57,328 nucleotides of DNA from Nemertoderma westbladi (taxonomy: Eukaryota; Animalia; Xenacoelomorpha): assembly GCA_032718475.1 (NCBI GenBank), contig JAUCBJ010002418.1:1-57328 (forward strand). The letters run 5' to 3'. Shown in pieces: positions 16,601-50,391 of the stretch. A model generated the notes under the pieces. It was not told the origin of the DNA. It made no database searches and worked only from the letters and a program-made list of their open reading frames with translations. Made by a program: the position numbers and the translations under genes. Each line of letters begins with the position of its first letter. Positions within the stretch are counted from its first letter, which is position 1.

Positions 16601-19600
16601 GGAATGGTTGCTGGAACTGGGGAAAGTGGAATGGTTGTTGGAACTGGGGATGGTGGAATGGTTGTTGGAGCTGGGGATGGTGGAATGGTTGTTGGAACTG
16701 GGGAAGGTGGAATAGTTGTTGGAGCTGGGGAAAGTGGAATGGTTGCTGGAACTGGGGAAAGTGGAATGGTTGTTGGAACTGGGGAAGGTGGAATGGTTGC
16801 TGGAACTGGGGAAAGTGGAATGGTTGTTGGAACTGGGGGAGGTGGAATAGTTGTTGGAGCTGGGGATGGTGGAATGGTTGTTGGAACTGGGGAAGGTGGA
16901 ATAGTTGTTGGAGCTGGGGAAAGTGGAATGGTTGTTGGAACTGGGGAAAGTGGAATGGTTGTTGGAACTGGGGAAGGTGGAATGGTTGTTGGAACTGGAG
17001 AAGGTGGAATGGTTGTTGGAACTGGGGAAAGTGGAATGGTTGTTGGAACTGGGGAAAGTGGAATGGTTGTTGGAACTGGGGAAAGTGGAATGGTTGTTGG
17101 AACTGGGGAAAGTGGAATGGTTGTTGGAACTGGGGAAGGTGGAATGGTTGCTGGAACTGGGGAAAGTGGAATGGTTGTTGGAACTGGAGGAGGTGGAATA
17201 GTTGTTGGAATTGGGGAAGGTGGAATGGTTGTTGGAACTGGGGAAAGTGGAATGGTTGTTGGAACTGGGGAAAGTGGAATGGTTGTTGGAACCGGAGAAG
17301 GTGGAATGGTTGTTGGAACTGGGGAAAGTGGAATGGTTGTTGGAACTGGGGAAAGTGGAATGGTTGTTGGAACTGGGGAAGGTGGAATGGTTGTTGGAAC
17401 TGGGGGAGGTGGAATAGTTGTTGGAATTGGGGAAGGTGGAATGGTTGTTGGAACTGGGGAAAGTGGAATGGTTGTTGGAACTGGGGAAAGTGGAATGGTT
17501 GTTGGAACTGGGGAAGGTGGAATGGTTGTTGGAACTGGGGAAGGTGGAATGGTTGTTGGAACTGGGAAAGGTGGAATGGTTGCTGGAACTGGGGAAGGTG
17601 GAATGGTTGCTGGAACTGGGGAAAGTGGAATGGTTGTTGGAACTGGGGGAGGTGGAATAGTTGTTGGAATTGGGGAAGGTGGAATGGTTGTTGGAACTGG
17701 GGAAAGTGGAATGGTTGTTGGAACTGGGGAAAGTGGAATGGTTGTTGGAACTGGGGAAGGTGGAATGGTTGTTGGAACTGGGGAAGGTGGAATGGTTGTT
17801 GGAACTGGGAAAGGTGGAATGGTTGCTGGAACTGGGAAAGGTGGAATGGTTGTTGGAACTGGGGAAGGTGGAATAGTTGTTGGAGCTGGGGAAAGTGGAA
17901 TGGTTGTTGGAACTGGGGAAAGTGGAATGGTTGTTGAAACTGGGGAAGGTGGAATGGTTGTTGGAACTGGAGAAGGTGGAATGGTTGTTGGAACTGGGGA
18001 AAGTGGAATGGTTGTTGGAACTGGGGAAGGTGGAATGGTTGTTGGAACTGGGGAAGGTGGAATGGTTGTTGGAACTGGGGAAGGTGGAATGGTTGTTGGA
18101 ACTGGGGAAGGTGGAATGGTTGTTGGAACTGGGGAAGGTGGAATGGTTGTTGGAACTGGGAAAGGTGGAATGGTTGTTGGAACTGGGGATGGTGGAATGG
18201 TTGCTGGAACTGGGGTAGGTGGAATGGTTGCTGGAACTGGGGATGGTGGAATGGTTGCTGGAACTGGGGTAGGTGGAATGGTTGTTGGAACTGGGGAAGG
18301 TGGAATGGTTGTTGGAACTGGGAAAGGTGGAATGGTTGCTGGAACTGGGAAAGGTGGAATGGTTGTTGGAACTGGGGATGGTGGAATGGTTGCTGGAACT
18401 GGGGTAGGTGGAATGGTTGTTGGAACTGGGGAAGGTGGAATGGTTGTTGGAACTGGGGAAGGTGGAATGGTTGTTGGAACTGGGGAAGGTGGAATGGTTG
18501 TTGGAACTGGGAAAGGTGGAATGGTTGCTGGAACTGGGAAAGGTGGAATGGTTGTTGGAACTGGGAAAGGTGGAATGGTTGTTGGAACTGGGGATGGTGG
18601 AATGGTTGCTGGAACTGGGGATGGTGGAATGGTTGCTGGCACTGGGGTAGGTGGAATGGTTGTTGGAACTGGGGAAGGTGGAATGGTTGTTGGAACTGGG
18701 GAAGGTGGAATGGTTGTTGGAACTGGGGGAGGTGGAATGGTTGATGGAACTGGGGAAGGTGGAATGGTTGTTGGAACTGGGAAAGGTGGAATGGTTGCTG
18801 GAACTGGGAAAGGTGGAATGGTTGTTGGAACTGGGAAAGGTGGAATGGTTGTTGGAACTGGGGATGGTGGAATGGTTGCTGGAACTGGGGTAGGTGGAAT
18901 GGTTGTTGGAACTGGGGAAGGTGGAATGGTTGTTGGAACTGGGGAAGGTGGAATGGTTGTTGGAACTGGGGGAGGTGGAGTGGTTGTTGGAACTGGGGAA
19001 GGTGGAGATGTGGTTGGAACTGGGGAAGGTGGAATGGTTGTTGGAACTGGGGAAGGTGGAATGGTTGCTGGAACTGGGAAAGGTGGAATGGTTGTTGGAA
19101 CTGGGAAAGGTGGAATGGTTGTTGGAACTGGGGATGGTGGAATGGTTGTTGGAACTGGGGAAGGTGGAATGGTTGTTGGAACTGGGGAAGGTGGAATGGT
19201 TGTTGGAACTGGGGAAGGTGGAATGGTTGTTGGAACTGGGGGAGGTGGAGATGTGGTTGGAACGGGGGAAGGTGGAGTGGTTGTTGGAACTGGGGAAGGT
19301 GGAATGGTTGTTGGAACTGGGGGAGGTGGAGTGGTTGTTGGAACGGGGGAAGGTGAAGTGGTTGTTGGAACTGGGGGAGGTGGAGATGTGGTTGGAACGG
19401 GGGAAGGTGGAGTGGTTGTTGGAACTGGGGAAGGTGGAATGGTTGTTGGAACAGGGGAAGGTGGAGTGGTTGTTGGAACGGGGGAAGGTGGAGTGGTTGT
19501 TGGAACGGGGGGAGGAGATGTGGTTGGAACTGGGGATGGTGGAATGGTTGCTGGAACTGGGGTAGGTGGAATGGTTGTTGGAACTGGGGAAGGTGGAATG

Positions 19601-21717
19601 GTTGTTGGAACTGGGGAAGGTGGAATGGTTGTTGGAACTGGGGGAGGTGGAGTGGTTGTTGGAACTGGGGAAGGTGGAGATGTGGTTGGAACTGGGGAAG
19701 GTGGAATGGTTGTTGGAACTGGGGAAGGTGGAGTGGTTGTTGGAACGGGGGAAGGTGGAGTGGTTGTTGGAACGGGGGAAGGTGGAGTGGTTGTTGGAAC
19801 GGGGGAAGGAGAAGATGTGGTTGGAACGGGGGAAGGTGGAGTGGTTGTTGGAACTGGGGAAGGTGGAGTTGTGGTTGGAATTGGGGAAGGTGGAGTGGTT
19901 GTTGGAACTGGGGAAGGTGGTGATGTGGTTGGAACTGGGGGAGGTGAATGGTTGTTGGAACTGGGGAAGGTGGAATGGTTGTTGGAACTGGGGAAGGTGG
20001 CTGGTTGTTGGAACTGGGGAAGGAGGAGATGTGGTTGGAACGGGGGAAGGTGGAGTGGTTGTTGGAACTGGGGAAGGTGGAGATGTGGTTGGAACTGGGG
20101 AAGGTGGAGATGTGGTTGGAACTGGGGAAGGTGGAATTGTTGTTGGAACTGGGGATGGTGGAGATATGGTTGGAACGGGGGAAGGTGGAGATGTGGTTGG
20201 AACTGGGGAAGGTGGAGATGTGGTTGGAACTGAGGTAGGTGGAATGGTTGTTGGAACTGGGGATGGTGGAGATGGGGTTGGAACGGGGGAAGGTGGAGAT
20301 GTGGTTGGAACTGGGGATGGTGGAGATGTGGTTGGAACTGGGGAAGGTGGAGATGTGGTGGGAACTGGGGAAGGTGGAATTGTTGTTGGGACTGGGGATG
20401 GTGGAGATGGGGTTGGAACGGGGGAAGGTGGAGATGTGGTTGGAACGGGGGAAGGTGGAGTGGTTGTTGGAACTGGGGAAGGTGGAATGGTTGTTGGAAC
20501 TGGGGAAGGTGGAGTGGTTGTTGGAACGGGGGAAGGTGGAGTGGTTGTTGGAACGGGGGAAGGTGGAGTGGTTGTTGGAACGGGGGAAGGAGAAGATGTG
20601 GTTGGAACGGGGGAAGGTGGAGTGGTTGTTGGAACTGGGGAAGGTGGAGTTGTGGTTGGAATTGGGGAAGGTGGAGTGGTTGTTGGAACTGGGGAAGGTG
20701 GTGATGTGGTTGGAACTGGGGGAGGTGAATGGTTGTTGGAACTGGGGAAGGTGGAATGGTTGTTGGAACTGGGGAAGGTGGCTGGTTGTTGGAACTGGGG
20801 AAGGAGGAGATGTGGTTGGAACGGGGGAAGGTGGAGTGGTTGTTGGAACTGGGGAAGGTGGAGATGTGGTTGGAACTGGGGAAGGTGGAGATGTGGTTGG
20901 AACTGGGGAAGGTGGAATTGTTGTTGGAACTGGGGATGGTGGAGATATGGTTGGAACGGGGGAAGGTGGAGATGTGGTTGGAACTGGGGAAGGTGGAGAT
21001 GTGGTTGGAACTGAGGTAGGTGGAATGGTTGTTGGAACTGGGGATGGTGGAGATGGGGTTGGAACGGGGGAAGGTGGAGATGTGGTTGGAACTGGGGATG
21101 GTGGAGATGTGGTTGGAACTGGGGAAGGTGGAGATGTGGTGGGAACTGGGGAAGGTGGAATTGTTGTTGGGACTGGGGATGGTGGAGATGGGGTTGGAAC
21201 GGGGGAAGGTGGAGATGTGGTTGGAACTGGGGATGATGGTTAAATAAATACCTTTACTTTTTGTATTTATTTGGGAAGGAATTAATTTTAGTCCCCTCAT
21301 CATTGATCATTTTGACTTCTTGTTGACATGGCAATACACCCCAACTCCAGCAAGCTCTAAACTAATAATACGTGATACAAAATGCTCTACAAAACATGCT
21401 GGCAGAACAAAAAATCACTGTTTTATACTAGTTTCTATGAAACCAGAACCATTGGTTAAACACCCTATCTCAAACAAATCCGCTTACATTGAATGGCAAA
21501 ACACCCTATAATTTTATTTCATCACTTTAATCCCTTTTTCGTCATCTCTCACCATCTATTCTATTAAAAAAATCTAAGTTAGCCTGTTAAGTTCCCTTAG
21601 GACCCATTATCAGCGATTTCTCACAATGTCTTCAATGTTGAATTAGGGGAAACGCGTTTAGGTTAATATCTCAAAATGTGTTTTTTTAGGATAGGGTGTA
21701 TTGCCAAACAACGGCAG
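1673..21717. mobile_element. Non-autonomous TIR DNA transposon (~20 kb) carrying a giant minisatellite; 4-bp TSD, Sola-like by TSD length
   Basis: Perfect 26-bp TIR: CTGCCGTTGTTTGGCAATACACCCTA (1673-1698) and TAGGGTGTATTGCCAAACAACGGCAG (21692-21717). AATA lies directly outside both ends (1669-1672, 21718-21721). No transposase is recognisable; the superfamily call is inference. Confidence 0.85.
2040..21240. repeat. 27-bp minisatellite, ~710 units, consensus GGAACTGGGGAAGGTGGAATGGTTGTT
   Basis: Directly visible. Recurrent variant units, with higher-order blocks of 189, 243, 270, 594, 781 and 1107 bp inferred from the spacing of stop-bearing variants in the ORF track. Confidence 0.99.
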
Positions 21718-25050: not shown

Positions 25051-26194
25051 TTCTGTCTCGCCCAACTTCTGTCTCTGCTTCCAAAATTATAAAAAAGCGT
25101 CTCGATATATAAAATATCGAGACTGGAAAAATATTTCGAGAAAATATCGCCATGGGATATATAGTGGTAGCTTAGTGGAAGGGTTTGGTTAGGTAAGTCT
25201 AGAGTTTAGTGTTGTCTTAGGATAGGGTTAGGTTGTAGATAGAGGGAGAGGCGGTATCACAACTCACCTCTGAGTATCAATGATCCAAGTATTGTTAGTT
25301 GTCTGGGTAATCAGTGTGAGTATCGTATTGGAAACATGATTGGATTCATTGTCGCTCATATATCTGTATATTCCACCTAAAAGGATAATAATATATACAT
25401 ATAGCATTGCAGCAATTAGATCAACGTGCACAAGTCACCACAACCCATCACAGACTGTTTCACATTGACACTGCACTGGGGAATAAAGCAAACATTTACT
25501 TACCTACCATAGATAGCCAGAGTAAGGCATGTTTTATTTTAAATTACAGTTTAAGCATATGCACGATCTGACGATTTATAAACGGCCCAAAGTACCAAGT
25601 GGACCTAACCTAACAGCAAGGCCTAGTACAGTAGTAGTAAGTAAAATAATAACCTCATCGCCAGAATCTGATGCGTATCTTTTACCTGGGAACGCATGTG
25701 TAATTTACTTCCGGCCGCCGGCGCTTTTTCCCTCTACAGCTCTATTTGATCCAAATAGATTACAGGATTAGGATTTTCATCACTTGAATCACTGAAATAA
25801 CGATATGTAAGAAGCCTATTCAAGTTCAATACAAACCTGTTAAGTGAAGAACCTTCGCATTAAATGTGGGCCAACTTGACAGTTGACAGAAGATCTGGAT
25901 TCGAAAATTCTTTCCAACGTACCGGTAGTAGGCCGGCATTTCGAGGAGGCCATAATATTTTTCCAGTCAGCCAGTGCAGCCCTTGCCGCTTGCCTGTTGT
26001 TTCGACCAACCAGAGCCAGGAAGACAGAGCCCAATCTAAACTCACCAAACTGTCGTCGTCATCGAATTACTGGCACTGCACTGCCTGACTGGCTGACTCC
26101 TGACTGCATTACATACAGACATATTAGGCCTACTGTATTAGGCCTACAATACAATAAGGCTAGGCTGCTAGGCCTATATAATGTACAGATATAT

Positions 26195-26520
26195 TATTAT
26201 AGAAAGGGATCTAGGGGTCTTAACCTCGAATGATAAGTTTATTTTACCGAAAATAACTTATCATTTATTGGCGCAATTGTAGGACTAATCCCATCACATG
26301 CGTACTTTTTAACCAGGTAGTGTACAAATTTAGGAATCGCGTATTTTTTCTTGAAATTAATATCTCATATCTCTCCAAACCACGTACGCGTTTCGACCTT
26401 ACTGGGTCTCATCGGCGTGGTGTCGGATTCGAACCTGGGACCTCGAGGTGGAAGCCGAGACTACAACCACTAGGCCACAGGTTCTTGAGATATGCAGATA
26501 TGGAGTATTAATTTCAAAGC
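26195..26520 (-). mobile_element. tRNA-derived SINE-like element with a hammerhead ribozyme (copy with the Pol III head)
   Basis: Minus strand: A box TGGCCTAGTGG (26467-26477), B box GGTTCGAATCC (~26425-26435), then the hammerhead motif, then a ~190-bp body highly similar to 50198-50382. The candidate TSD GTACAGATATAT (26183-26194 / 26628-26639) would extend the element to 26627. Confidence 0.8.
26380..26420 (-). ncRNA. Minimal type I hammerhead ribozyme (U4C core variant)
   Basis: CCACG-CCGATGA-GACC-cagtaa-GGTC-GAAA-CGCG-TA-CGTGG. The core reads CCGAUGA instead of CUGAUGA. Confidence 0.75.
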
Positions 26521-27099
26521 CAGCTGCCATTTTAATTAATAGACAATAATTAGACAATTAGACAATAATTGTATAATAACAAACACCTCGAAAAATACAG
26601 CTTGCCAACACATTGTTACTATCAATAGTACAGATATATGACAGTCAGACAGTATGAAGCTTGATTAAAAATAACTTAAACAGTCAGACAGTTAATATAG
26701 GCATACGGCAGTAAACAAACATATGGCAGTATGGTCAACCCTATCTGCCTATTGCAGCACTTAAACCAGTAAACAGCCGGCCTACACTGCAGCACTACTG
26801 TCTGACTGTCAAGCTCTCAGAATGTGGCTGAGTGGGTGCTGGTAGGCTGGGGCAGGCAGTGGAGTGTCTACTGACTGACTGATGTACTGCAGTACTGCAT
26901 GCACTGCCAGACTGATGCATGATTTACTGATTTATAGGCCTATAAACGAATTTGGCGGTAAATTTTAGGCGGTTTATTCAAACAGCCTTAAGTATGATGT
27001 AGTGTTACCACAGTACCGTACCGGTGCCGGTACTAAAATACAGAAATACCTGCTTTATACCTACATCTAACTTATACTGTCTCACTGTCTGACTGTTAT

Positions 27100-28221
27100 A
27101 TGATATTCGAGAAATTCCGCAACGATAAACACAACGCTGCAACGGATGCAACCTACAATCTGACAATGACGCCCCCTAACAATAAAGTAAAGGCGAAAAA
27201 AAATATGGCGTCATCGCGAAGACCTGAGATACCGGTACCGGACATGTCAAAGATGATTAGTTGCGACATATGTTCGGGTTTCTTTCTGGATGAAGCAACA
27301 TACGAAAGCCACAATACTCACTGTCAGGGTTCAATCTTCGTAGAACCTCCCAGCGCCTGCAGCCACTGCAACAAATCTGTATCCGGCAACAATTGTTTAG
27401 GCTGCGAAATTTGTGGATCGTGGATCCATGCTGCTTGCCTCAAACTATCAAATGCTGAAATACAAATCCTAGCCAAATGCAAGAACTGTAAAATCGTCTG
27501 TTCTCCCTGCGAGTCTAAAGGAAAACTATCGATAGAGGACGGCACCAGCCCCGGTCCTAAACAACTAGAGTCCATGATATCTAACCTGAAATCTTCTCTA
27601 AAAGACGACTTCGATTTACTTAACAGTGAATTGATATCTCTTCGAAACAACAACAGTAGTTCCAACCATTGGACGACAGTCGACGGAAAGAAAAAGAACA
27701 GCAATAACAGAGTCAACCAGCAGCATCAACCTCTGACGCTTGATGATGTCTCCCGAGAGGTGGGTGAACAGAAAAAGCGGCAGAACAACTTAGTTATTCG
27801 GGGGTTTGCTCTACCCGAAGAATCTTCTGAGGATGTTCAATGCTTGACAACGTTCCTTCAGGATAACTTCGTAGTGGCTGCACCACTGAAAAAAGTACTC
27901 TACAGACGCCCAGCAAGAACGGTCGATGGTGTCGACAAATGTTCCACTGTAATTGTGGAGCTCTCCTCTCTCGAGATCAAGTCCACAATTCTCCGGAAAA
28001 AGTCAACACTGAAAGACTTGGCTTCTGGCATATATATCTCTCAGGACCTCACCCCCCTTCAATCAGAGCAAGCCTATCTACGGCGCAAATCGATCCGTGA
28101 GAATAGGAGACAAAGTACTTCAACCGAACCCCGGCGTTCTACCACCCGCCCAGCACAGAATGACACTGACACAGCTTCTGCTTCTGGTACTAATTCTGTA
28201 CCGGTGCAGGGAAACCAGTAA
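27100..28221 (+). CDS. LINE ORF1 protein (C2H2-like finger, PHD finger, coiled coil, RRM-like C-terminus)
   Basis: CDICSGFFLDEATYESHNTHC; PHD pattern CSHC..CEICGSWIHAAC..CSPC; KRQNNLVIRG and IYISQDLT motifs typical of CR1/L2 ORF1. The true start may be a downstream ATG. Confidence 0.85.
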   Translation: MIFEKFRNDKHNAATDATYNLTMTPPNNKVKAKKNMASSRRPEIPVPDMSKMISCDICSGFFLDEATYESHNTHCQGSIFVEPPSACSHCNKSVSGNNCLGCEICGSWIHAACLKLSNAEIQILAKCKNCKIVCSPCESKGKLSIEDGTSPGPKQLESMISNLKSSLKDDFDLLNSELISLRNNNSSSNHWTTVDGKKKNSNNRVNQQHQPLTLDDVSREVGEQKKRQNNLVIRGFALPEESSEDVQCLTTFLQDNFVVAAPLKKVLYRRPARTVDGVDKCSTVIVELSSLEIKSTILRKKSTLKDLASGIYISQDLTPLQSEQAYLRRKSIRENRRQSTSTEPRRSTTRPAQNDTDTASASGTNSVPVQGNQ

Positions 28222-31058
28222 AGGGAGGTCATCGCCAACCAGCTAACATAACACATGATCAATATTTGAACTGCTGTTGCTTAAATGCCCAGTCTACTAA
28301 GAATAAACTGCCTGATCTCGACGAATTCCTTAGTTCGCGCAGTATCGACGTCCTCGCGGTTACGGAAACCTGGTTAACTGATGCCGTAAACGACTCTGAG
28401 ATTCAGAGTGATCCAAAGTATAAGGTAATCAGAAACGATCGTTCCTCTAAAATCGGCGGCGGTGTTCTTCTGTTGATTAGCGACAAACTGAAATACGCGC
28501 GTGTCGAACTCCTGGATCCCGAATCAGAAATAGAATTTGTTGCTGTTGACATCCTCGGTGTCAACAAATCCCGGTTTATCTGTGCATATCGACCGCCATC
28601 ACGACAACACAATTCTGCGTATGAAAGTAAACTTTGCGACACCCTTCAAACCCTTTGTGACGTCCCCTACCCATGCATTGTCACTGGAGACTTCAATCTC
28701 CCGAGTTGGAACTGGAAAGACCTCAGTCACCCAGATTCAGATCTCTACAATGGATTCGAGACTTTCATCCTTGAAGCGAGTTTAAACCAGGTCCAGTTTG
28801 AACCAACCAGAGGTGCAAATGTTCTCGACTTGGTGTTTACATCCGATGAAGAGTTTGTATCAAATGTCACAGTAGATTTACCCTTCTCTACCAGCGATCA
28901 TTCCATCGTTCTTTTCAATATCATTGACCCAAATTGTAGTTCTGGAAACATGGATGAGCCACCGGGATTCTACGACTTTAGCAATGGCGACTACATAGGT
29001 TTTAATGATTATCTAAGGGAAATAGATTGGAGAGCTATTTATGGTCCATGCATTTCGGTCAACGATTTTTATAATTGTTTTAGCAAACAGCTAAAGGATG
29101 GCATCGATCGGTTTATTCCTTTCAAGGTTTTTACTCGCAAAAGAAAGAAAACGTATCCAAGTTATGTCAGAAAGCTCCAGAAAACAAAACTGCTACTTTG
29201 GCGGCGGCGCAGTACTCCCGGTGGCCTGGAAGCCTACAGACGATCGGCGAAACAGGCGTCTCAGTCAGTGTACCGGGCAACGTGCGAGAAAGAATCGAAA
29301 CTCTTAAACTCCGGCGACTCGAACGCGATCTTCAAATATATTAACTCTAAACGGAAGAAAGCCTCTGGGATCGGCCCTTTGAAGTATCAAGGAGATACGA
29401 TAGTCGATAATGAAAAAAAAGCCGAGATTTTCGCCAAAGTTCTTTCGGAAAACTTCTCGGAAGACAACGGCACAATCCCGACGTTCCTTCGCAAAGTTCC
29501 AGACAACATCGGACTGTCATCGGTCGATCTGAGCCCCATTAGGGTTCTAACTATATTACGCCAGCTGCAGTCGAAGAAAAGTAGATCACCGGATGGTCTG
29601 CCGTCCATTATCTTTGTTAAATTGGCGTGCGCCCTCGCCTCGCCTCTGTCTGTGATATTTAACGTCTCTCTTTCAACCCACACCCTACCGGACATCTGGT
29701 TGACCGCAGACATTATTCCACTGTTCAAGAAGGGGAACCCTGCAGACCCGTACAATTATAGACCCATCAGTCTCACCTGTATATCTTGTAAAATTATGGA
29801 ACGGTGCATAAAAAATGCTATTATTAATTATTTGTCAAGCCATGGAATTATTTCCAAGGCACAGCATGGTTTCCTTCAGCGTAAATCAACCTGTACTCAG
29901 TTATTGGACTGCATTACAGATTGGTACAAATTAGTTGACCGTAAATATAATATTGATATTATTTATATTGATTACGCCAAAGCGTTCGATTCGGTAGTCA
30001 CTTCGAAATTGTTTGCTAAATTAGAAAGTTACGGCTTTACAGGTGATTTATTGTTATGGCTTAAAGCGTTTTTAACAAATAGAAAGCATCGTATTTTAAT
30101 CGGTAACACTTTTTCAGATTATTGTGCTGTTTTATCAGGTACAGTCCAGGGGAGTGTTTTAGGTCCTGTTCTTTTTTTACTATTTATTAACGACTTACCT
30201 GAATTGCTTTCACCTATTGATGTTAAACTTTTTGCTGATGATGTTAAACTCTACGCACCCACCACCGAACGTGACTCTTTAGCCAACGCCCTCAAATTGT
30301 TAGAGACATGGGCAAATGAGTGGCAGCTAGACGTTGCAGCTCATAAATGCACTGTTATACATGTTGGCGCATCAAACAGTAATTTTAATTATATTTTAAA
30401 CGGTAATGTAATTAAGTGCGAAGATTTCTGCAAAGACCTTGGTATTATTGTTAGTGCTGATTTGAAGTTTAATAATTATTGTAAGCAGCAAGTTGCTAAA
30501 GCTTATAGGATGATAAATATGATATTTCGTAACATTAAATCGTGTAATAAATCGGCACTTTTAACGGCCTACAAGTCTATTGTTAGACCGGTTTTAGAGT
30601 ACTGTACCCCTGTTTGGTCGCCCTTCACTAAGTATGGTATAAATTTAGTCGAACGAGTTCAACACTATTTTACACGCAGATTGTATCGTCGGTGCAAATT
30701 AACTTATGTTTCATATTGTGACCGTCTAACCTGCCTGTCTCTACAACCCTTGGAGGTTAGGAGAATTATTTTCGACTTGAAAATGGTGTACCGTATTTTT
30801 CACGGCCTTGTTGACCTTACGTTTAGTAACTACTTTTCACGTGCGCCAGTAAAAGGGCTACGTGGACACAGCTATAAACTTCATATTCCGTATTGCAGAC
30901 TACAACTTTGTAAGAACTCTTTTAACTACCGCACTGTTCCATTCTGGAATTCTTTATCGCAAGATATTGTTGATGCTAAAAACCTACAAATTTTTTCTCG
31001 TAAATTATTAACGTTCGATTTCAAGTCACACTGTTCGGTCGACCATTGGTGCAAATAG
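28194..31058 (+). CDS. LINE ORF2: apurinic-like endonuclease + reverse transcriptase
   Basis: LNAQS, VTETWL, GGGV, YRPP, GDFN and SDH (APE); NYRPISL, DYAKAFD, QGSVLGP and FADD (RT); CR1-type C-terminus LRGHSYKL..WNSL. The frame is open from 28194 and has no ATG until after the APE domain. Confidence 0.95.
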   Translation, partial: FCTGAGKPVKGGHRQPANITHDQYLNCCCLNAQSTKNKLPDLDEFLSSRSIDVLAVTETWLTDAVNDSEIQSDPKYKVIRNDRSSKIGGGVLLLISDKLKYARVELLDPESEIEFVAVDILGVNKSRFICAYRPPSRQHNSAYESKLCDTLQTLCDVPYPCIVTGDFNLPSWNWKDLSHPDSDLYNGFETFILEASLNQVQFEPTRGANVLDLVFTSDEEFVSNVTVDLPFSTSDHSIVLFNIIDPNCSSGNMDEPPGFYDFSNGDYIGFNDYLREIDWRAIYGPCISVNDFYNCFSKQLKDGIDRFIPFKVFTRKRKKTYPSYVRKLQKTKLLLWRRRSTPGGLEAYRRSAKQASQSVYRATCEKESKLLNSGDSNAIFKYINSKRKKASGIGPLKYQGDTIVDNEKKAEIFAKVLSENFSEDNGTIPTFLRKVPDNIGLSSVDLSPIRVLTILRQLQSKKSRSPDGLPSIIFVKLACALASPLSVIFNVSLSTHTLPDIWLTADIIPLFKKGNPADPYNYRPISLTCISCKIMERCIKNAIINYLSSHGIISKAQHGFLQRKSTCTQLLDCITDWYKLVDRKYNIDIIYIDYAKAFDSVVTSKLFAKLESYGFTGDLLLWLKAFLTNRKHRILIGNTFSDYCAVLSGTVQGSVLGPVLFLLFINDLPELLSPIDVKLFADDVKLYAPTTERDSLANALKLLETWANEWQLDVAAHKCTVIHVGASNSNFNYILNGNVIKCEDFCKDLGIIVSADLKFNNYCKQQVAKAYRMINMIFRNIKSCNKSALLTAYKSIVRPVLEYCTPVWSPFTKYGINLVERVQHYFTRRLYRRCKLTYVSYCDRLTCLSLQPLEVRRIIFDLKMVYRIFHGLVDLTFSNYFSRAPVKGLRGHSYKLHIPYCRLQLCKNSFNYRTVPFWNSLSQDIVDAKNLQIFSRKLLTFDFKSHCSVDHWCK

Positions 31059-32994
31059 CCGTTTAACTTTTTACTTATTTATATTATTTTTTAAACTATT
31101 TTTTTTAAGGTTTTGTATCCGTTGTGTGATTGTGTTTGTTATTTTTATTTCATTCCTACCTATTTTATTAAGTAATAACCAATGAAATTATTTTTATCAC
31201 AATATTTATCACTATACTATACTGTATGTACACATATATTTACACTTAATTTATCTTCTTTTAAAACATTTAAATCGCCCCTTTAAGTGCCTCGAGCCTG
31301 GGCGGCGATCTCCCTCGAAAAATTGTCGATTGCTTATATTTAGTATTTCTTAATTCTACTGTATTGGTTATACTATATATATTTTAATGTATGTTATCGT
31401 GTATTAAATATATAATATAAGACAGATTGGCAATGATGTGCAGGACGTTTGTTCAACACGACAAAGTAGCATTTAACAAACAGCTGGAATAAACATGTAT
31501 GATTTATGTTACACAATAACGTGTAAAACAAATGTTAAATAATTACATGATAAAACATGTTACATTTAGGTATCATAAAAACGTGATCAACAAATGTTTG
31601 ATTATAACATGATTGAATATTATGTTATTTAGATGTTAAAATAACATGTTGATTAAAACAAGTTTAGAAAAAAAACATGTCAACATGATTCAAGCATATA
31701 AACGAACGTTTGGTATAATAACGTGTAGCGTGTCTGGTTAGCAGGGTACGGTCTGACGGTACCTGTCTACTGCTGTGACTGGTGTCAGGCAGTAGCGTAT
31801 CGCGTATCCATCCATACTACCGCTACCGGTACAACATCCGGCAGACAGCCATTGTTGTAGTGCCCGGGCTGCCGGGCTACCCCTGCAAAGGCTATGTCAT
31901 ATTATTATGATAATAAATCTAAATTAAATTTCCCACTACAATATACCAGTATACACAACAAACGTCCTTGTGATTGGTTCATAGGCAAGCACCTACGCAA
32001 GAAATTCCTACGCCAAAAGACAATTCTGGCCTACGCGTAAACCTACGCGTAGGCCTACGTATACGCAGTAAAGTCAAACCCGGACTTGGGGGGGGGGGGG
32101 GGGGGGGGGGTCAGAGGAGAATTTCCACAACTTTTAAATTTTACATTGAAATAAAGACCACCCTACTGACCAGCCGTTTGACGGGTGAAAGTTCCTAGCT
32201 GTATTTACATAGGCCTACTGACATAGGCTTCCGTCTGTCCGTAAGCCTAAATGCTGATACTGTGGTATGAGAACCTGACAATAGCATGCGGTGCTGGAAT
32301 CAGGCAGTATACAGGTATAGCAGTACAGCAGTAGCAGTAGGTCCTTAAAATTAACCTTGAGAATGAGATGAACAAAATGTACTTAATACCGGTCCCTATC
32401 CCTACCGGTGTTAAAAAAATGAAACTGTAAACAAGTAAAGTGAAACTCTTCGTACAGTTAATCTAAATCTTATATCATCAGTCTGTCAGTATATTTTTGT
32501 CTTATTGGGTACCGGCAACGGGCACGGGTACAGCGGTACCGGTAATATTGTGTTTTTTGGGGTAATTCGTAGCGTAGGACTGTAGGACCCATTCCTGCAT
32601 TCAGCCAATGTACTGCAGTCAGGCAGTACTGTCAGACTGTCCAGGGTCCAGCTGTCTGACCAGCTGACTGTTATAGGCCTAGCTGCCTAGGTCAGTGCAG
32701 CAGTAGGTCATAGGTAGGCCTATATAAATATATAACAGTACCGTATAATTAAATTTATAACTGGTATTTAACAGTTTTAGACCATGTCAGCATGTAGGAA
32801 GACCTACCGGCGAGCGGCGACCGGTACGCCGGGGCCGGGGCCAGTACCGGCTGACTGCAGGGCTGCCCGCGCCCGGTGCCCGGGGCTGCCGGCTGACCGG
32901 TCTCTGCACTACACCTTAGGGCCGTGTACGGTACAGGCTGACAGGTAGGCCTAATTGCTTTTATCTTCATAATATTGTCATAATCGGGTGGATA

Positions 32995-35900
32995 ATGGAT
33001 ATGACTTGTTTTTACGAAGTGTGTTCTATGTGCCGGAAACGCGTGAAACTAAACTTCTCTATTAGCGACCCCGAAACTGGACAAGCTAAATTCAATCTAT
33101 CATTTTGTTCGCCATCCTGCCAACAGCAATTTAAATCTGAATACTATGGAATATGTCACGTTTGTTCGAAATTCATAGTAATTCCTCAGAAAAGCTCCAG
33201 CAAGGCACTTGCGGCAAGGGGTTATTGTAGTGAAGAATGCGGTAATTTATTTCGTGGCAATAAATGCCAGGGATGCAACAAAGAATTCACCACCCAAAGA
33301 GGAATTATTGGTACTATGAAGCAATACAAGAATGTGCATCAGACAGTTAGGGTGCTCTGCGGTGATGACTGTGATAAGTTTGTTAACTCTGTTTTAAAAT
33401 CTTGTTGTGTCTCTTGTAAATTGCCCTTGGAAGGTCTAAATATTAAACAATTGCTTTGGCGAAAAGCAATTATGTGTTTTTGCACTGATAAGTGCGTTGA
33501 TTGGTACATTCGGTTTATAACTGGGAAATATAGTAACCAGCATATCTCTGGGACTGTGTGTTCATCTTGTAATTGCGTCATAGATGGCGACATGGTACCT
33601 GAATACAGCGATGCTGATGCTGTTTTAGATGGTCGTGCGTTTTGCTCAAGTTCTTGCAGCAAACGGTCAACTAGGAGTACAAGTTTTGTTCAGAAAGACA
33701 TTTCTACTGCTGATATTGCAAACACTGGTATTGCGACGGTTACCGTTATCACTAATTCGGACGGCATTGATATTTCTGAAAACGTCGGCAACATTGATTC
33801 TGTTATCGACACTAGTTCACCAATTCCTCAGCCATTTTATGGATTCGATTGTAATTATTTAGAATTCTTGAATAGGTTTGGAGAAGGGGCAAGTTGTGTG
33901 TGCAAATGTTGGGTTGCTTTGAAAAATGTCGATAATCCAACGGCATTATCTGAAGTTAGTAAGATACCGGTACCCAATCAGATAGAGGTACCTAAACCGG
34001 GAATAGAGGTACCAAAACCGGGGATAGAGGTACCAAAACCGGGGATAGAGGTACCAAAACCGGGGATAGAGGTACCAAAACCGGGGATAGAGGTACCAAT
34101 ACCGGGGATTGAGGTACCTAAACCGGGGATAGAGGTACCAAAACCGGGGATAGAGGTACCAAAACCGGGGATAGAGCAACCAAAACCTCGAACTGCCAAA
34201 GACGCGATTGTAATTGGTCCAAAGAAACAAAATCCAAAACTTGATTTAACTGTTAGTCTATCTAAATACAATCCAAACCATCTAGACCCGCATTCAATTT
34301 CGAATGTCCTACCTCAAATCAATTCACCACAAAATCCTTATTCAACTGACTCATCCGTTCGAGTACCTGTTGCGAAATTCCCGAAATCTCAAAGTCCCAA
34401 CGTTAAACCTTCTAACCTTCGAGAGCCAACATCCGATCTCCTTCCACCTAACCACATCGATACGGTGCATGGGGATGATTTCTTGGACAGGTTAATACCT
34501 ATCGGTGAAATGTTAGAGCCATTAAAGTCTGCCTTGTCGCCCAATCAGAAGAGACCTTATTCTGGAAGTCCAAAATCGATGTTTCCGAAGGTTCGTTTCT
34601 CGGTACCGGATAACGAACCCATTGATTCAGTCAGCAATGCCAATGACACCAACAACAATGATCTCCTAAGGAGTAGACATTGTGTGGTCTCCATCCCCTC
34701 GTTACGTGTTTCAGATCGATTCCCGTCGTATTCGTCCGCAATCATATCATCTTCCCCCTCCACTCCCTTCCACTCATCACGCACTTTCTACTCCAACTCT
34801 CATTCGCTGAGAGACAGAAGCACAGAAGGTGTCCCCGTTGTTAGGTGCACAGAAGGTGCCCCCGTTGTTAGGTTCACAGAAGGTGCCCCCGTTGTTAGGT
34901 GCACAGAAGGTGCCCCCGTTGTTAGGTGCACAGAAGGTGCCCCCGTTGTTAGGTGCACAGAAGGTGCCCCCGTTGTTAGGTGCACAGAAGGTGCCCCCGT
35001 TGTTAGGTGCACAGAAGGTGCCCCCGTTGTTAGTTGCACAGAAGGTGCCCCCTTTGTTAAGTGCACAGAAGGTGCCCCCGTTGTTAGGTGCACAGAAGGT
35101 GTCCCCGTTGTTAGGTGCACAGAAGGTGCCCCCGTTGTTAGGTGCACAGAAGGTGCCCCCGTTGTTAGGTGCACAGAAGGTGCCCCCGTTGTTAGGTGCA
35201 CAGAAGGTGTCCCCGTTGTTAGGTGCACAGAAGGTGCCCCCGTTGTTAGGTGCACAGAAGGTGCCCCCGTTGTTAGGTGCACAGAAGGTGCCCCCGTTGT
35301 TAGGTGCACAGAAGGTGCCCCCGTTGTTAGTTGCACAGAAGATGCCCCCTTTGTTAAGTGCACAGAAGGTACCCCCGTTATTAGGTTCACAGAAGGTGCC
35401 CCCGTAGTTAGGTGCACACAAGGTGCCCCCGTTGTTAAGTGCACAGAAGGTGCCCCCATGGTTAGGTGCACAGCAGGTGCCCCCGTGGTTAGGTGCACAG
35501 AAGGTGCCCCCGTTGTTAGGTGCACAGAAGGTGCCCCCGTTGATAGGTGCACAGAAGGTGCCCCCGTAGTTAGGTGCACAGAAGGTGCCCCCGTTGTTAG
35601 GTGCACAGAAGGTGCCCCCGTTGTTAGGTGCACAGAAGGTGCCCCCGTTGATAGGTGCACAGAAGGTGCCCCCACTGCTAGGTGCACAGAAGTTGCCCCC
35701 ATTGCTAGGTGCACAGAAGGTGCCCCCGTTGTTAGGCGCACAGAAGGTGCCCCCGTTGCTAGGTGTTCTCCTAGACTTGTTTCCTCATCAACACAAACCT
35801 TCCGAGAGATAGAAGAACTTCCGCCCGAACGGCCGCTAGTGAAACTCGTCTCGATATCGACACAAACAGGTGCCGATCTCGAACCCGTGAGCAGATCGTC

Positions 35901-36225
35901 TCAGACTCGTCCGTATGGAGTGGGTGGACCCCAAGACGGACAAGGCCGTAAGATTGGACGCCCCCCAGCGTCCATGCAGCCTACCGTTAACAGCAAACCC
36001 CTGCCACTAGGGGGCCGCGTAAACGAGTACAATATCTCGAGTTCGCAGATTAAACCTTACCATTCGCGGAACCCGCTACGTCATTGCAACGCCTCGACCG
36101 CTGCTATTTATGATTTCAACGATTCTGATGATTTTGAGCCGGAAACGCAGATTGTTAGGAAAAGAAAGAAATCTGAAAATAAAAGAGGAAGGCCTCGAAA
36201 GTATCCCAAGGCAATAGGACAGTGA
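32995..36225 (+). CDS. Intronless 1076-aa protein with five MYM/FCS(TRASH)-type zinc fingers, two internal repeat arrays and a C-terminal AT-hook
   Basis: Five CxxC-x(20-27)-CxxxC units ending FCSPSC, YCSEEC, LCGDDC, FCTDKC and FCSSSC; KRGRPRKYP AT-hook preceded by a basic NLS-like stretch; AATAAA at 36374-36379. Confidence 0.75.
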   Translation: MDMTCFYEVCSMCRKRVKLNFSISDPETGQAKFNLSFCSPSCQQQFKSEYYGICHVCSKFIVIPQKSSSKALAARGYCSEECGNLFRGNKCQGCNKEFTTQRGIIGTMKQYKNVHQTVRVLCGDDCDKFVNSVLKSCCVSCKLPLEGLNIKQLLWRKAIMCFCTDKCVDWYIRFITGKYSNQHISGTVCSSCNCVIDGDMVPEYSDADAVLDGRAFCSSSCSKRSTRSTSFVQKDISTADIANTGIATVTVITNSDGIDISENVGNIDSVIDTSSPIPQPFYGFDCNYLEFLNRFGEGASCVCKCWVALKNVDNPTALSEVSKIPVPNQIEVPKPGIEVPKPGIEVPKPGIEVPKPGIEVPKPGIEVPIPGIEVPKPGIEVPKPGIEVPKPGIEQPKPRTAKDAIVIGPKKQNPKLDLTVSLSKYNPNHLDPHSISNVLPQINSPQNPYSTDSSVRVPVAKFPKSQSPNVKPSNLREPTSDLLPPNHIDTVHGDDFLDRLIPIGEMLEPLKSALSPNQKRPYSGSPKSMFPKVRFSVPDNEPIDSVSNANDTNNNDLLRSRHCVVSIPSLRVSDRFPSYSSAIISSSPSTPFHSSRTFYSNSHSLRDRSTEGVPVVRCTEGAPVVRFTEGAPVVRCTEGAPVVRCTEGAPVVRCTEGAPVVRCTEGAPVVRCTEGAPVVSCTEGAPFVKCTEGAPVVRCTEGVPVVRCTEGAPVVRCTEGAPVVRCTEGAPVVRCTEGVPVVRCTEGAPVVRCTEGAPVVRCTEGAPVVRCTEGAPVVSCTEDAPFVKCTEGTPVIRFTEGAPVVRCTQGAPVVKCTEGAPMVRCTAGAPVVRCTEGAPVVRCTEGAPVDRCTEGAPVVRCTEGAPVVRCTEGAPVVRCTEGAPVDRCTEGAPTARCTEVAPIARCTEGAPVVRRTEGAPVARCSPRLVSSSTQTFREIEELPPERPLVKLVSISTQTGADLEPVSRSSQTRPYGVGGPQDGQGRKIGRPPASMQPTVNSKPLPLGGRVNEYNISSSQIKPYHSRNPLRHCNASTAAIYDFNDSDDFEPETQIVRKRKKSENKRGRPRKYPKAIGQ
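33982..34186 (+). repeat. Coding 21-bp repeat (IEVPKPG), ~10 copies
   Basis: ATAGAGGTACCAAAACCGGGG tandem units, in frame. Confidence 0.95.
34821..35765 (+). repeat. Coding 27-bp repeat (CTEGAPVVR), ~35 copies
   Basis: CACAGAAGGTGCCCCCGTTGTTAGGTG tandem units, in frame with no indels. Confidence 0.95.
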
Positions 36226-43956: not shown

Positions 43957-44545
43957 ATTTTCTGATGACACGGACCCCCCCCCTCCCCCCCCCCCCCCAC
44001 AAAAAAAATTTTTTCTACAAATCTTTATCATATTGTTTGAAATTTGAAACACAACCAGTTCAACTCACCGTCGATGACCCCATGAAGCCGGAATTTTCGA
44101 TTTCACCTTTAAATTATTTTTATAAGCGTTTTAAAAAAGTGTCTATTGCGAAATCGCACCATCCGTATCATTGTTCCAGAATATTATGTATTTATTAAAT
44201 AGAATAAATGGCCTTCAGCGAACAATAATTCTTGCAATCTTTGAACGCCTATTTCTCAGCTGTTTCTCAACGAAATTCAAACATTGTTACATATTTGGAA
44301 TCCTTGGAACACAAGCTCTTTAATGATATCTATGAAGCGAGGTTAATGTGGAGAATGGCGATGATAGGAGATGTGCAATTTCGCAAAAGACACTTTTTTA
44401 AAACGCTTATAAAAAAAAATGTAAAGGCAAAATTGAATATTCCGGCTTCATGGTGACAACCACGGTGATTTGAACTAGTTGTGTTTCAAATTTCAAGCAA
44501 TATGATAAAAATCTGTAGAAAATGTCATCAGTGTCATCAGAAAAT
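43957..44545. mobile_element. MITE/foldback element with ~200-bp imperfect inverted arms
   Basis: ATTTTCTGATGACAC...GTGTCATCAGAAAAT termini; arms pair through TTGAAATTTGAAACACAAC, CATGAAGCCGGAA and AAGCGTTTTAAAAAAGTGTC. No TSD seen. Confidence 0.75.
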
Positions 44546-46905: not shown

Positions 46906-47327
46906 TTAGAGTCGGTTTCTGCAAATAAGGAATAAAGTTGACATACTGTAACAAAATTACGCACATCATTGTATGAAAAGGGAAAAGGCATTATTCGGCG
47001 CTAAAGAATAAAGACCATTGATTACTTATATAAGTTCTTTGTCTGCGCTTGCTCGCTACTAGTATCATAAAGACGAATCGTTTTACTTTTCACACAATGA
47101 TGTAAAATAGTTATTGATTTATATGTAACATCCCTAGCAGGGCAAATAATTTGGGGTCAGGACCGTTTCTTTATTTAGTGAACATGTCCGCAATCGTGAT
47201 ATATTGAGAGAGCGGACTGTAACAGTACACTAAATTAAAAAAAAAAGGATAGTTTCACGCCCTCTTAAGGTGACTCCTAAGAGAAGAACTATATTATTCT
47301 ATTATTCATATAAGAACAAAACGAAGA

Positions 47328-47408
47328 TGGCTGGGGTGGGATTCGAACCCACGCCTCAATGAGACTGGTGCCTTAAACCAGCGCCTTAGACCGCTCGGCC
47401 ACCCAACC
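47328..47408 (-). tRNA. tRNA-Leu (anticodon AAG)
   Basis: GGTTGGG/CCCAGCC acceptor stem, TGGCCGAGCGGTCTAAGGC D arm, CTGGT-TTAAGGC-ACCAG anticodon arm, CTC-ATT-GAG variable arm, GTGGG-TTCGAAT-CCCAC T arm, discriminator A, downstream TTTT terminator. Confidence 0.95.
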
Positions 47409-47423
47409 ACGAGAAGATGAAGC

Positions 47424-48980: not shown

Positions 48981-50154
48981 TGTATTCCTCGAAACGGGAA
49001 ACGGGCCCCCTGGACTGACAACAAAATTCAGAAGTGCCGAAATGACCTCTGCAAGGCGCAGAAAGAGTCCCGACTCAAACAGACTACAGTACAGCGGCCA
49101 AGAATGCAGATAAGGCTGCATCTAGGTCCCTGAACACGCAGTACTCTGTTAATTTACAGGAGCTAATAAACCAACAGGTTGATGCCATCAATGATGCTGA
49201 CGACAGCAGGCAATCATCCCAGTTGATCAATCAACTTGCTTGCTGGTCGAAAAAGCCAACCAACCACCAGGGTTAAGGCTGAATCACCAGCCGATCGCCT
49301 CAATGGTTGGAAGGCCCACTTTGAAAAGCTCCTCAATAATGACAGGGTATTGCCTGATAACTTTATAGAAGTAAAAGTGTCTGAGTCTGTACTCCCAGAT
49401 ATTCCTATTGGTGATATCTCCTTTGCAGAAGTGAAGGCTGCTGCAAAGAGCATTAAGACCAATCGTACCAGTGGAGTAGATGGTGTTCCCCCTGAGGTCT
49501 TTAAAATACCTGAGTATTTAAAGCTCATCTATCCCATCATAGTAGACATGTACAGAACAACAAGAGTCCCACAAGAAATGAAAACAAATAAGTTGGTGCC
49601 AGTTCCCAACAAGGGCAACCTAACACTCTATGGTTCTTTTCGGGGAATCTCATTGATCTCGATTGCTGCCAAGCTATACAATAGAATTCTATTAAATCGC
49701 ATCAGGGATCGCATTGAGAGACTGCTCCGTGGAAATCAGAATGTGATCCGTAAAGGTCGTGGGACCATGGAGCCCATTTTGGCACTTAGAAGGATAATTG
49801 AAGAGTTATCAAAAAAGAAAGACGGGCATCTGGCTGTTATCTTTGTTGACTTCTTCAAGGCCTTTGATTCAGTCTCTCGCTCACATATATTATGTTCAGC
49901 ATACTTTCAGTATATGGGATTCCTGATGAAATTATTGCAGCAATCAGATCAGTATACGATGGTTCGACAACATTTGTGTCTACTGTTGACGGTGACACAG
50001 AACCATTTGAAGTGTTATGGGGCGTCCTCCAGGGAGACACACTTGCACCATTCTTGTTCATAATTGTTGTTGACTATGTTCTACGCATGTCCTTAGATCA
50101 CTATAATGATGCTAACTCCACCTACTGGCTCCAGAAGTCGAGGAAACCCTGCCA

Positions 50155-50391
50155 CGCCACGCTGATGAGACCCAGTAAGGTCGAAACGCGTACGTGGTTT
50201 GGAGAGATATGAGATATTAATTTCAAGAAAAATTACGCGATTCTTAAATTTGTACACTACCCGGTTAAAAAGTACGCATGTAATGGGATTAGTCCTACAA
50301 TTGCGCCAATAAAAGATAAGTTATTTTCGGTAAAATCAACTTATCATTCGAGGTAAAGACCCCTAGATCCCTTCCTATAATAAATGTATAA
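50155..50391 (+). mobile_element. 5'-truncated copy of the hammerhead SINE inserted in the RTE RT domain
   Basis: Reverse-complement match to ~26195-26422; TSD TGCCA (50150-50154 / 50392-50396). Removing the insert restores RSRGNPAKYLTDLDFADD. Confidence 0.9.
50157..50197 (+). ncRNA. Minimal type I hammerhead ribozyme with canonical core
   Basis: Stem I CCACG/CGTGG, CTGATGA, stem II GACC-CAGTAA-GGTC, GAAA, palindromic stem III ACGCGT, GUA cleavage triplet (predicted cut after 50192). Confidence 0.88.

What the first reader, a model, noticed from the sequence alone, without database searches (positions are those of the whole stretch)
26195..26627. tRNA-promoter SINE fused directly to a hammerhead ribozyme
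Seen (minus strand): Pol III A and B boxes of a tRNA-like head run straight into a minimal type I hammerhead, followed by a ~190-nt body with a 3' hairpin and a TAA-rich tail. Known: minimal hammerheads with a palindromic stem III occur in Penelope-like elements and retrozymes and cleave as dimers; tRNA-derived hammerhead repeats are known from Schistosoma Sm-alpha. Inference: a mobile, Pol III-driven, self-cleaving retroelement family. Cleavage would separate the promoter head from the body. Two copies within 24 kb suggest high copy number.
Basis: partly seen in the sequence, partly recalled or inferred. Interest (0 to 1): 0.82.

Follow-up and report, generated by a model that had tools for sequence, protein, structure and literature searches.

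The report
tRNA-headed hammerhead repeat, Penelope-style insertions
This is one copy of an abundant 411-base non-coding jumping repeat of an animal, in which a tRNA-type promoter motif sits directly in front of a predicted self-cutting hammerhead RNA (a design already known from blood flukes), and the shape of its insertions suggests that a Penelope-type enzyme likely copied it.

Summary
The feature is real. Window 26195-26627 is an insertion with a 12-nt target duplication. It holds Pol III A and B boxes fused to a type I hammerhead. Contigs of public runs show a high-copy family in which head and ribozyme are normally linked. The repeat unit is 411 nt and cyclic. Two fixed end points 64 nt apart, recurrent tail inversions and no LINE-like 3' end point to Penelope-type mobilisation. 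Expression, cleavage and circles are not shown: the one circular contig comes from a run that also holds other genomic repeats. The design matches Schistosoma Sm-alpha/Sj-alpha and the non-LTR retrozymes. This scan has already noted what looks like the same family on other pieces of this genome. Verdict: new member of a known kind, interest 0.45.

The parts
26628..26639 (.). Target-site duplication, copy on the element's 5' side (12 nt)
   Evidence: Exact repeat of 26183-26194. A form without the insert, joint 26182>26628 with 12 shared letters, is seen in runs X1 and X5.
26564..26627 (+). 64-nt tail of the unit, inverted relative to the body; it normally follows the body's 3' end
   Evidence: X4 record 17; loose ends before 26564 read as the body's 3' end in 23 X1 and 7 X2 contigs. 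Copy B's last bases match the start of this tail.
26535..26563 (.). 29-nt reiterated filler at the inversion junction, likely specific to this copy
   Evidence: Summed contig depth in bin 26539-26569 is 21,456 against 590,838 in the next bin in X1, and 10,610 against 423,675 in X2; sequence.
26484..26534 (-). 5' segment of the unit, upstream of the predicted Pol III start; predicted to pair with the sequence just 3' of the ribozyme
   Evidence: Duplex energy -22.5 kcal/mol, reached by 5 of 1000 shuffles. An 8-nt stretch at 26488 is absent in part of the family.
26425..26483 (-). tRNA-derived head: A box 26477-26467, B box 26435-26425; cut off right after the B box (T stem and acceptor stem incomplete)
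   Evidence: Motif scan and chance control; local alignment with the window's tRNA-Leu at both boxes; not called by ARAGORN or Rfam.
26379..26421 (-). Type I hammerhead motif; core at 26415-26409 with a private U-to-C change at 26414; predicted cut after 26385
   Evidence: The family letter at 26414 holds 558,622 of 558,676 summed depth in X1.
26195..26378 (-). Non-coding body with a hairpin near 26267-26225; holds the only T4 run of the sense strand covered by the window (26253-26250)
26183..26194 (.). Target-site duplication, copy on the element's 3' side
50155..50391 (+). Copy B: 5'-truncated at the ribozyme, intact CUGAUGA core (50162-50168), body and a short start of the tail; inserted in a dead RTE-like LINE reverse transcriptase gene
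   Evidence: The LINE without the insert (joint 50149>50392, 5 shared letters) is seen in all 4 runs laid.
50150..50154 (.). 5-nt target duplication of copy B (partner at 50392-50396)

Best explanation
The insert is one copy of a young, high-copy, non-coding 411-nt repeat that joins tRNA-type A and B boxes to a type I hammerhead motif, and it is likely a self-promoting non-LTR retrozyme pasted into the genome by a Penelope-like (PLE) reverse transcriptase/endonuclease acting in trans. Step 1 (inferred): Pol III would start at a head in a tandem or partial-tandem locus and read into the next unit. Step 2 (predicted): two ribozymes would pair through the palindromic stem III and cut after GUA, releasing a 411-nt monomer with the head at its 3' end, which a host ligase would close into a circle. 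Step 3 (inferred from junctions): a PLE enzyme would nick both target strands and start cDNA at two sites 64 nt apart. One cDNA copies the body backwards; the other copies the tail onto the opposite strand. Shown in the DNA: duplication + inverted tail + filler + 5'-truncated body + duplication (copy A), and a plain 5'-truncated copy (copy B). Copy A itself likely cleaves poorly because of its core change.
For: High copy and linkage. In X1, summed contig depth is 702,551 over the ribozyme, 580,495 over the junction and 559,050 over the head, against 797-1,607 in the flank bins 26632-26848. Four of the 24 records listed bridge the junction by 31 nt or more on both sides; 4,562 further pieces were not shown. 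Three X5 contigs continue from the ribozyme start into B-box letters. Cyclic unit. X4 record 17 (441 nt) maps body, 19 other letters, tail, then body end again: period 411 with a 30-nt overlap. Five X2 contigs show the same link from the unit's 5' segment to the tail end in a run guessed to be DNA. Two fixed end points. Mixed flanks begin at 26194 (26 X1 and 24 X2 contigs, agreement 0.46 and 0.44) and at 26627 (30 X1 and 20 X2 contigs, agreement 0.50 and 0.45). Inversion is recurrent: 5 of the 15 joints shown (of 67), plus 3 more in table 5c, join the body to the tail as in copy A. These match PLE hallmarks: 5' truncation, partial tandems, inverted 5' copies and a tail at one end (PMC8557442 passages), and a tail lying between two internal RT start sites in an AC-rich region (PMC11167929 parts 1-2). 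Our tail is 66% A+C against 51% in the body. The co-folding minimum of two copy-B motifs is the active dimer (-32.3 kcal/mol); the active monomer is -6.4 against -12.0 for an inactive fold. The circular model folds better than 60 of 60 shuffles (z -5.1). Copy A spans the cut site and about 50 nt upstream of the predicted Pol III start, so its template was longer than a lone Pol III transcript. No ORF: the longest stop-free stretch is 86 codons, and the ATG in the core stops after 15 codons.
Against: No RNA evidence. X4 is only guessed to be RNA and carries a different organism label. It also holds the RTE LINE (depth 35-182) and scraps of the MITE, roughly in step with their DNA depth, so its circular contig may be collapsed genomic repeats. 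No PLE partner was identified: no genome is held and no PLE gene was recognised among the window's ORFs (read by eye; 5 of 43 scanned). A T4 run at 26253-26250 lies before both end points and could stop Pol III (leakiness of T4 is recalled). The tail is 64 nt, against 30-40 nt in described PLEs. The tail alone folds weakly (-3.7 kcal/mol). Both copies score below the Rfam gathering thresholds. There is no covariation: the copies are too alike and no distant relative was found. In the anole PLE, cleavage was dispensable in vitro and no reads ended at the cut. Only 1 of 9 Xenopus retrozyme dimers cleaved in vitro. Most inversion joints rest on short sides of 22-30 nt at 80% likeness. Summed contig depth is not a copy number.
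Confidence: 0.55

Rival explanations
1. Same element and same PLE partner, but the ribozyme is mostly a passenger: uncut linear multimeric transcripts are the template and no circle is needed.
For: In the anole PLE, ribozyme mutants inserted normally and uncut RNA was the main substrate (PMC11167929). Two start sites on a linear RNA also give an inverted tail that meets the body's end. The monomer motif is predicted to misfold. Copy A is continuous across the cut site.
Against: The family majority keeps a full core and perfect stems. Related metazoan retrozymes accumulate as circles (PMC7229834 discussion). In copy A the body stops 19 nt short of the second start site, as a one-lap copy of a circle would, but this is a single case.
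Confidence: 0.2
2. The unit is the pseudo-LTR of an autonomous, protein-coding Penelope element that captured a tRNA promoter; the short copies are its truncated ends.
For: PLE ends carry type I hammerheads and most PLE copies are truncated. Retrozymes are proposed to derive from pLTRs (bioRxiv 10.64898/2026.07.22.740005). Unreviewed scan notes report this arrangement in other genomes (leads only).
Against: The tail returns through 19 nt to the unit's own 5' segment rather than into an ORF. There is no ORF on either strand of the modelled unit. The ribozyme has canonical rather than PLE min-HHR helix sizes. A rare coding branch could hide among the 434 loose ends not shown.
Confidence: 0.13
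3. An ordinary tRNA-derived SINE, mobilised by a LINE, that happens to carry a hammerhead.
For: A and B boxes with tRNA spacing, 5' truncation, target duplications of 5 and 12 nt, an A-rich 3' end; LINEs are abundant here. LINE twin priming also makes 5' inversions (recalled).
Against: The unit extends upstream of the head and is cyclic, has two fixed end points and no simple-repeat tail. There is no similarity to the 3' regions of the two LINEs in the window; the best match is 12 nt, E=0.045. Only those two LINEs were tested.
Confidence: 0.07
4. A chance nesting at this locus: a hammerhead repeat inserted into an unrelated tRNA pseudogene or SINE.
For: Copy B lacks the head.
Against: Depth runs on across the junction, diverged contigs bridge it, and one duplication brackets the whole insert.
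Confidence: 0.02

Closest known systems
Sm-alpha (Schistosoma mansoni) and Sj-alpha (S. japonicum) SINE-like hammerhead retroposons. Seen in passages of PMC6765202, PMC2770079 and PMC8490949; Ferbeyre 1998 and Laha 2000 were not read.
   Same: tRNA-derived Pol III promoter followed by a type I hammerhead, unit of a few hundred nt (335 nt there), tandem and dispersed copies, very high copy number, promoter left at the 3' end of the cleaved monomer.
   Different: Unit of 411 nt. Sequence homology was not tested (no Sm-alpha sequence was held), and the host taxon here is unknown. The passages read give no Penelope-type end points or inversions for Sm-alpha.
Metazoan non-LTR retrozymes (Cervera and de la Pena 2020, PMC7229834: passages and discussion; Li, Clavereau and Pollet, bioRxiv 10.64898/2026.07.22.740005: parts 1 and 3 of 5)
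   Same: Non-coding unit with one canonical type I hammerhead, GC below 50%, target duplications longer than 4 bp, cyclic unit, PLEs proposed as partner.
   Different: A 2020 review states that retrozymes seem to harbour no promoters (PMC7761336 passage); this one has intact A and B boxes. Circular RNA and cleavage are not shown here.
EN+ Penelope-like elements, e.g. Poseidon of Anolis carolinensis (PMC11167929, parts 1-2 of 4); PLE structure in PMC8557442 (passages)
   Same: 5' truncation, partial tandems, inverted 5' segments, an optional tail between two end points, hammerhead upstream of an A/C-rich tail.
   Different: No ORF; tail of 64 nt rather than 30-40; tRNA-type head; canonical rather than minimal hammerhead.
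Non-autonomous PLEs such as MRC1 of Chlamydomonas (PMC8557442 passage) and short non-autonomous Penelope elements of Heliconius (PMC6685494 passages)
   Same: Short non-coding elements with PLE-type head-to-tail insertions.
   Different: No tRNA head is described in the passages read; the Naiad/Chlamys group lacks canonical hammerheads.

Membership tests
Type I hammerhead ribozyme | Core CUGANGA, GAAA, UH with three helices, ends in stem I | tested here: met
   Met in copy B and in the family majority; copy A has one core change.
Type I hammerhead ribozyme | Score above an Rfam hammerhead gathering threshold | tested here: not met
   HH9 23.8 and 26.3 bits against 52; no hit at gathering. The very short stem III is a likely cause.
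Type I hammerhead ribozyme | Stem covariation | tested here: inconclusive
   No compensatory change between copies A and B; no distant relative found.
Type I hammerhead ribozyme | Self-cleavage | not testable with these tools
   Folding predicts a dimer requirement.
PLE min-HHR (Cervera 2014) | Helix II 7-8 bp, helix I 4-5 bp, extra nucleotide before helix II, little or no helix III | tested here: not met
   Here helix I 6 bp, helix II 4 bp, 4 nt between GAAA and UH, which fits that paper's 'canonical' class.
Sm-alpha-like elements | tRNA-derived A and B boxes directly upstream of a type I hammerhead | tested here: met
Sm-alpha-like elements | Sequence homology to Sm-alpha/Sj-alpha | not tested
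Sm-alpha-like elements | Pol III transcription | not testable with these tools
   Motifs only; one T4 run in the body.
Non-LTR retrozyme | Non-coding unit with one type I hammerhead and target duplications longer than 4 bp | tested here: met
Non-LTR retrozyme | Head-to-tail tandem copies | tested here: inconclusive
   Both junctions that close the unit exist in contigs, but this window has only single copies; arrays are reported only in unreviewed scan notes.
Non-LTR retrozyme | Accumulation as circular RNA | tested here: inconclusive
   Circular contig in X4, but that run also holds other repeats in step with DNA depth.
Non-autonomous PLE | Tail between two end points, inverted 5' segments, 5' truncation | tested here: met
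   tables 5, 5c, 7 and 8.
Non-autonomous PLE | An autonomous PLE partner sharing the terminal sequence | not testable with these tools
   No genome held.
Autonomous EN+ PLE | RT plus GIY-YIG ORF joined to the repeat | tested here: not met
   No ORF in the modelled unit; a rare coding form cannot be excluded.
LINE-dependent tRNA SINE | Element starts at the tRNA head and ends in a LINE-like 3' end or simple-repeat tail | tested here: not met
   About 50 nt of unit upstream of the head, cyclic unit, no match to the two local LINEs.

The most novel reading that the evidence does not exclude
This is a Penelope-dependent counterpart of SINEs: a viroid-like RNA rod that captured a tRNA promoter inside the extension of its hammerhead stem I, makes its own Pol III circle, and is integrated by two-site priming on that circle. 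Copy A would be a one-lap record of this: body plus inverted tail cover the whole 411-nt unit except 19 nt, and the two pieces meet at the same point (4-5 nt overlap). With the head cut out in silico, the flanks still fold as one long helix around the ribozyme, and the head lies between two ACC triplets. The family would give thousands of young junctions for reading how a PLE enzyme handles a circular template. I found no report of a tRNA-headed element with PLE-type ends in 9 literature searches.
Probability: 0.3. Interest if true: 0.7.

Novelty: new member of a known kind. Interest (0 to 1): 0.45.

Why it matters
The partner that mobilises Sm-alpha-like elements and animal retrozymes has been proposed (PLEs) but rests on co-occurrence and pLTR similarity. 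A young, abundant family with a clean Penelope insertion signature and its own Pol III promoter motif makes that link testable, and it is an exception to the statement that retrozymes lack promoters. The promoter-plus-hammerhead design itself has been known since 1998, so the surprise is moderate.

Tried and rejected
Whole-genome search: no genome is held. Exact 32-nt pattern in metagenome contigs: 0 hits. A degenerate B-box-plus-hammerhead pattern gave 15 metagenome and 3 viral loci; none of the 18 matched copy A by blastn at E<=0.01. By their content they are complete tRNAs next to ribozymes, other hammerheads or chance matches (15 of 18 scanned with Rfam), so no covariation test was possible. 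Expression: no RNA holder listed. I first took the circular contig of X4 as a circular RNA and dropped that after the control. Polymorphic insertion: the insert-free form exists, but the flank is itself repeated and the spanning X5 contig differs from the window by 11-12 letters and many gaps, so allele and paralogue cannot be told apart; I do not claim polymorphism. X2 shows a different joint there (26197>26635). Copy number: summed contig depth is not a count, so no number is given. Host taxon: a homologue search with the local LINE ORF2 gave no organism names. Weak Rfam hits and 52 other than the hammerhead (VIS1, mir-7386, sR42 and others) are chance level. Lunse et al. 2017 (PMC5785218) is not held; Ferbeyre 1998 and Laha 2000 were not read. 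No supplements were read; those of the bioRxiv preprint and of the retrozyme papers could list tRNA-headed families. A look-up of earlier findings by sequence returned nothing.

Full report
Context. The window is repeat-rich DNA, most likely animal: satellites, an intact LINE ORF2 at 28194-31058 whose relatives carry endonuclease and RT domains, a dead RTE-like LINE at about 49000-51230 (clade name from recalled motifs) and one tRNA-Leu. No whole genome is held, so family-level evidence comes from contigs of public runs: 12 runs were listed and 4 of them (X1, X2, X4, X5) were laid twice.

Observation. On the minus strand an A box (26477-26467) and a B box (26435-26425) lie 31 nt apart. The only other such pair in the window is the tRNA-Leu, and 200 simulations gave none. 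Four bases after the B box a type I hammerhead begins: stem I 6 bp, stem II 4 bp with a 6-nt loop, a palindromic stem III, and a predicted cut after GUA at 26385. My descriptor finds only this motif and its twin at 50162, and none in 200 simulations. Rfam agrees weakly (HH9, E=0.0027 and 0.00019, both under gathering). Because the flank is itself repeated, that form may be an allele or a paralogue.

Corrections. Copy A's core reads CCGAUGA. The family majority has U there: 558,622 of 558,676 summed depth in X1, 325,780 of 325,817 in X2, 2,238 of 3,396 in X5. Core changes are expected to reduce cleavage (PMC8490949 passage). Copy B (50155-50391) starts at the ribozyme and has no head; it sits in the LINE with a 5-nt duplication, and the uninterrupted LINE is seen in 4 of 4 runs. 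The two copies differ at 10 of 230 positions. The helix sizes are those of the canonical metazoan motif, not the PLE min-HHR (PMC4209133, passages and section 5). The head is a promoter remnant: ARAGORN and Rfam do not call it, and the end of its B box is predicted to pair into an extension of stem I.

Is the head part of the family? Yes. In X1, depth is 702,551 over the ribozyme, 580,495 over the junction and 559,050 over the head, against about 800-1,600 in the right flank; X2 gives 400,812, 289,742 and 157,231. Four of the 24 records listed bridge the junction, with 5 to 22 differing letters. Three X5 contigs extend the start of copy B with B-box letters. Depth falls towards the 5' segment, as 5' truncation would give. 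These depths are sums over contigs and are not copy numbers.

The unit. X4 record 17 (441 nt) maps as 26194-26534, then 19 other letters, then 26627-26564 on the opposite strand, then 26199-26221 again. That is a period of 411 with a 30-nt overlap, a closed loop in the assembly graph. Both closing junctions also occur in runs guessed to be DNA: body end to tail (23 X1 and 7 X2 contigs) and tail end to 5' segment (5 X2 contigs). So the first 64 nt of copy A are the unit's downstream tail turned round, followed by a 29-nt low-depth filler. The control shows that X4 also holds the RTE LINE (35-182) and scraps of the MITE, while the element stands at 13.8, roughly the ranking seen in DNA. The loop is therefore no evidence for a circular RNA or for expression.

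Insertion signature. Mixed, long flanks begin at two points: 26194 (26 X1 and 24 X2 contigs) and 26627 (30 and 20, plus 9 X2 contigs at 26624). Five of the 15 joints shown (67 in all) and three more in table 5c join a truncated body to an inverted tail as in copy A; most have short sides. PLEs are described with 5' truncation, partial tandems, inverted 5' copies and a 30-40 nt tail at one end (PMC8557442 passages). In the anole PLE the tail is the stretch between two internal RT start sites in an AC-rich region, and both target strands are cut and extended (PMC11167929 parts 1-2). Priming at two sites 64 nt apart explains copy A directly: one cDNA copies the body, the other copies the tail until it meets the first start, and the pieces overlap by 4-5 nt. 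The body and tail show no similarity to the local LINE 3' regions. No partner PLE was found, so this step is an inference.

RNA structure. The insert folds better than 100 of 100 shuffles (z -3.74), and the circular model better than 60 of 60 (z -5.1). A long helix between the 5' segment and the sequence after the ribozyme encloses head and ribozyme (-22.5 kcal/mol, 5 of 1000 shuffles), and it persists when the head is removed in silico, which suggests the head was captured into an older hairpin (inference). A lone motif prefers an inactive fold (-12.0 against -6.4 kcal/mol); two motifs co-fold into the active double hammerhead (-32.3), in line with the dimer model. One T4 run at 26253-26250 would have to be read through for a transcript to reach the end points. 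Copy A includes about 50 nt upstream of the predicted Pol III start and spans the cut site, so its template was an uncut multimer or a re-ligated circle. The modelled unit has no ORF.

Comparison. A promoter followed by a hammerhead, in tandem and dispersed copies, is the described design of Sm-alpha and Sj-alpha (passages of PMC6765202, PMC2770079, PMC8490949). Non-LTR retrozymes share the unit type and are proposed to be PLE-mobilised (PMC7229834; bioRxiv 10.64898/2026.07.22.740005, parts 1 and 3), though a review says they seem to lack promoters (PMC7761336 passage). Nine searches found no report of a tRNA-headed element with PLE-type ends; the library lacks most subscription papers and I read no supplements. 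No relative turned up in the contig collections.

Earlier scan notes. I had written down the 411-nt, PLE-type reading before seeing them. Three unreviewed notes from other pieces of this genome describe what looks like the same family, two of them as tandem arrays, and notes from other genomes describe tRNA-headed pLTRs of coding PLEs. I treat them as leads; the second group raised the coding-PLE rival, which I tested only on the modelled unit.

Verdict. A real, young, abundant Sm-alpha-like retrozyme family with a Penelope insertion signature. New member of a known kind, interest 0.45. The bolder reading (a Penelope-dependent SINE class copied from a Pol III circle) has probability 0.3 and would merit 0.7.

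Noticed in passing
window 2040-21233: A 19-kb satellite of 27-nt units (711 copies, 92% matches) with GC skew near 0.84 and stop-free frames of over 6,400 codons on the minus strand; most likely a satellite, not a gene.
   Followed up: no
window 27037-31058 (+): An apparently intact LINE 410 nt from copy A: ORF1 of 394 codons with a weak PHD match, and ORF2 of 954 codons whose best relative is 41% identical.
   Followed up: partly
window about 48990-51230 (+): A dead RTE-like LINE that hosts copy B and ends in short TAG repeats; its family has higher summed depth than the hammerhead element.
   Followed up: partly
window 52543-53619 and 54160-57273 (+): Two long ORFs with no Pfam hit; the longer has no PDB sequence hit either. 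By eye it resembles the protein-primed DNA polymerase of Polinton/Maverick elements (recalled, untested).
   Followed up: partly
window 43974-44522 and 47424-47766: A MITE-like inverted-repeat family with poly-C/poly-G ends, present several times in the window and at high depth in DNA runs.
   Followed up: partly
window 32920-36225 (+): A 1,101-codon frame with cysteine-rich motifs and two internal tandem repeats (21 and 27 nt); possibly a real exon with coding repeats.
   Followed up: no
L004:347-454, L006:484-800, L014:426-557, L017:701-750: Hammerhead-like motifs a few bases 3' of tRNA or tRNA-like ends, in tRNA arrays for L004, L006 and L014; L006 also has a second hammerhead above gathering and a partial GOLLD match. 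Possibly ribozyme-based tRNA 3' processing in phage-like DNA.
   Followed up: no
window 47326-47409 (-): An intact tRNA-Leu (AAG) gene next to a MITE-like repeat.
   Followed up: no
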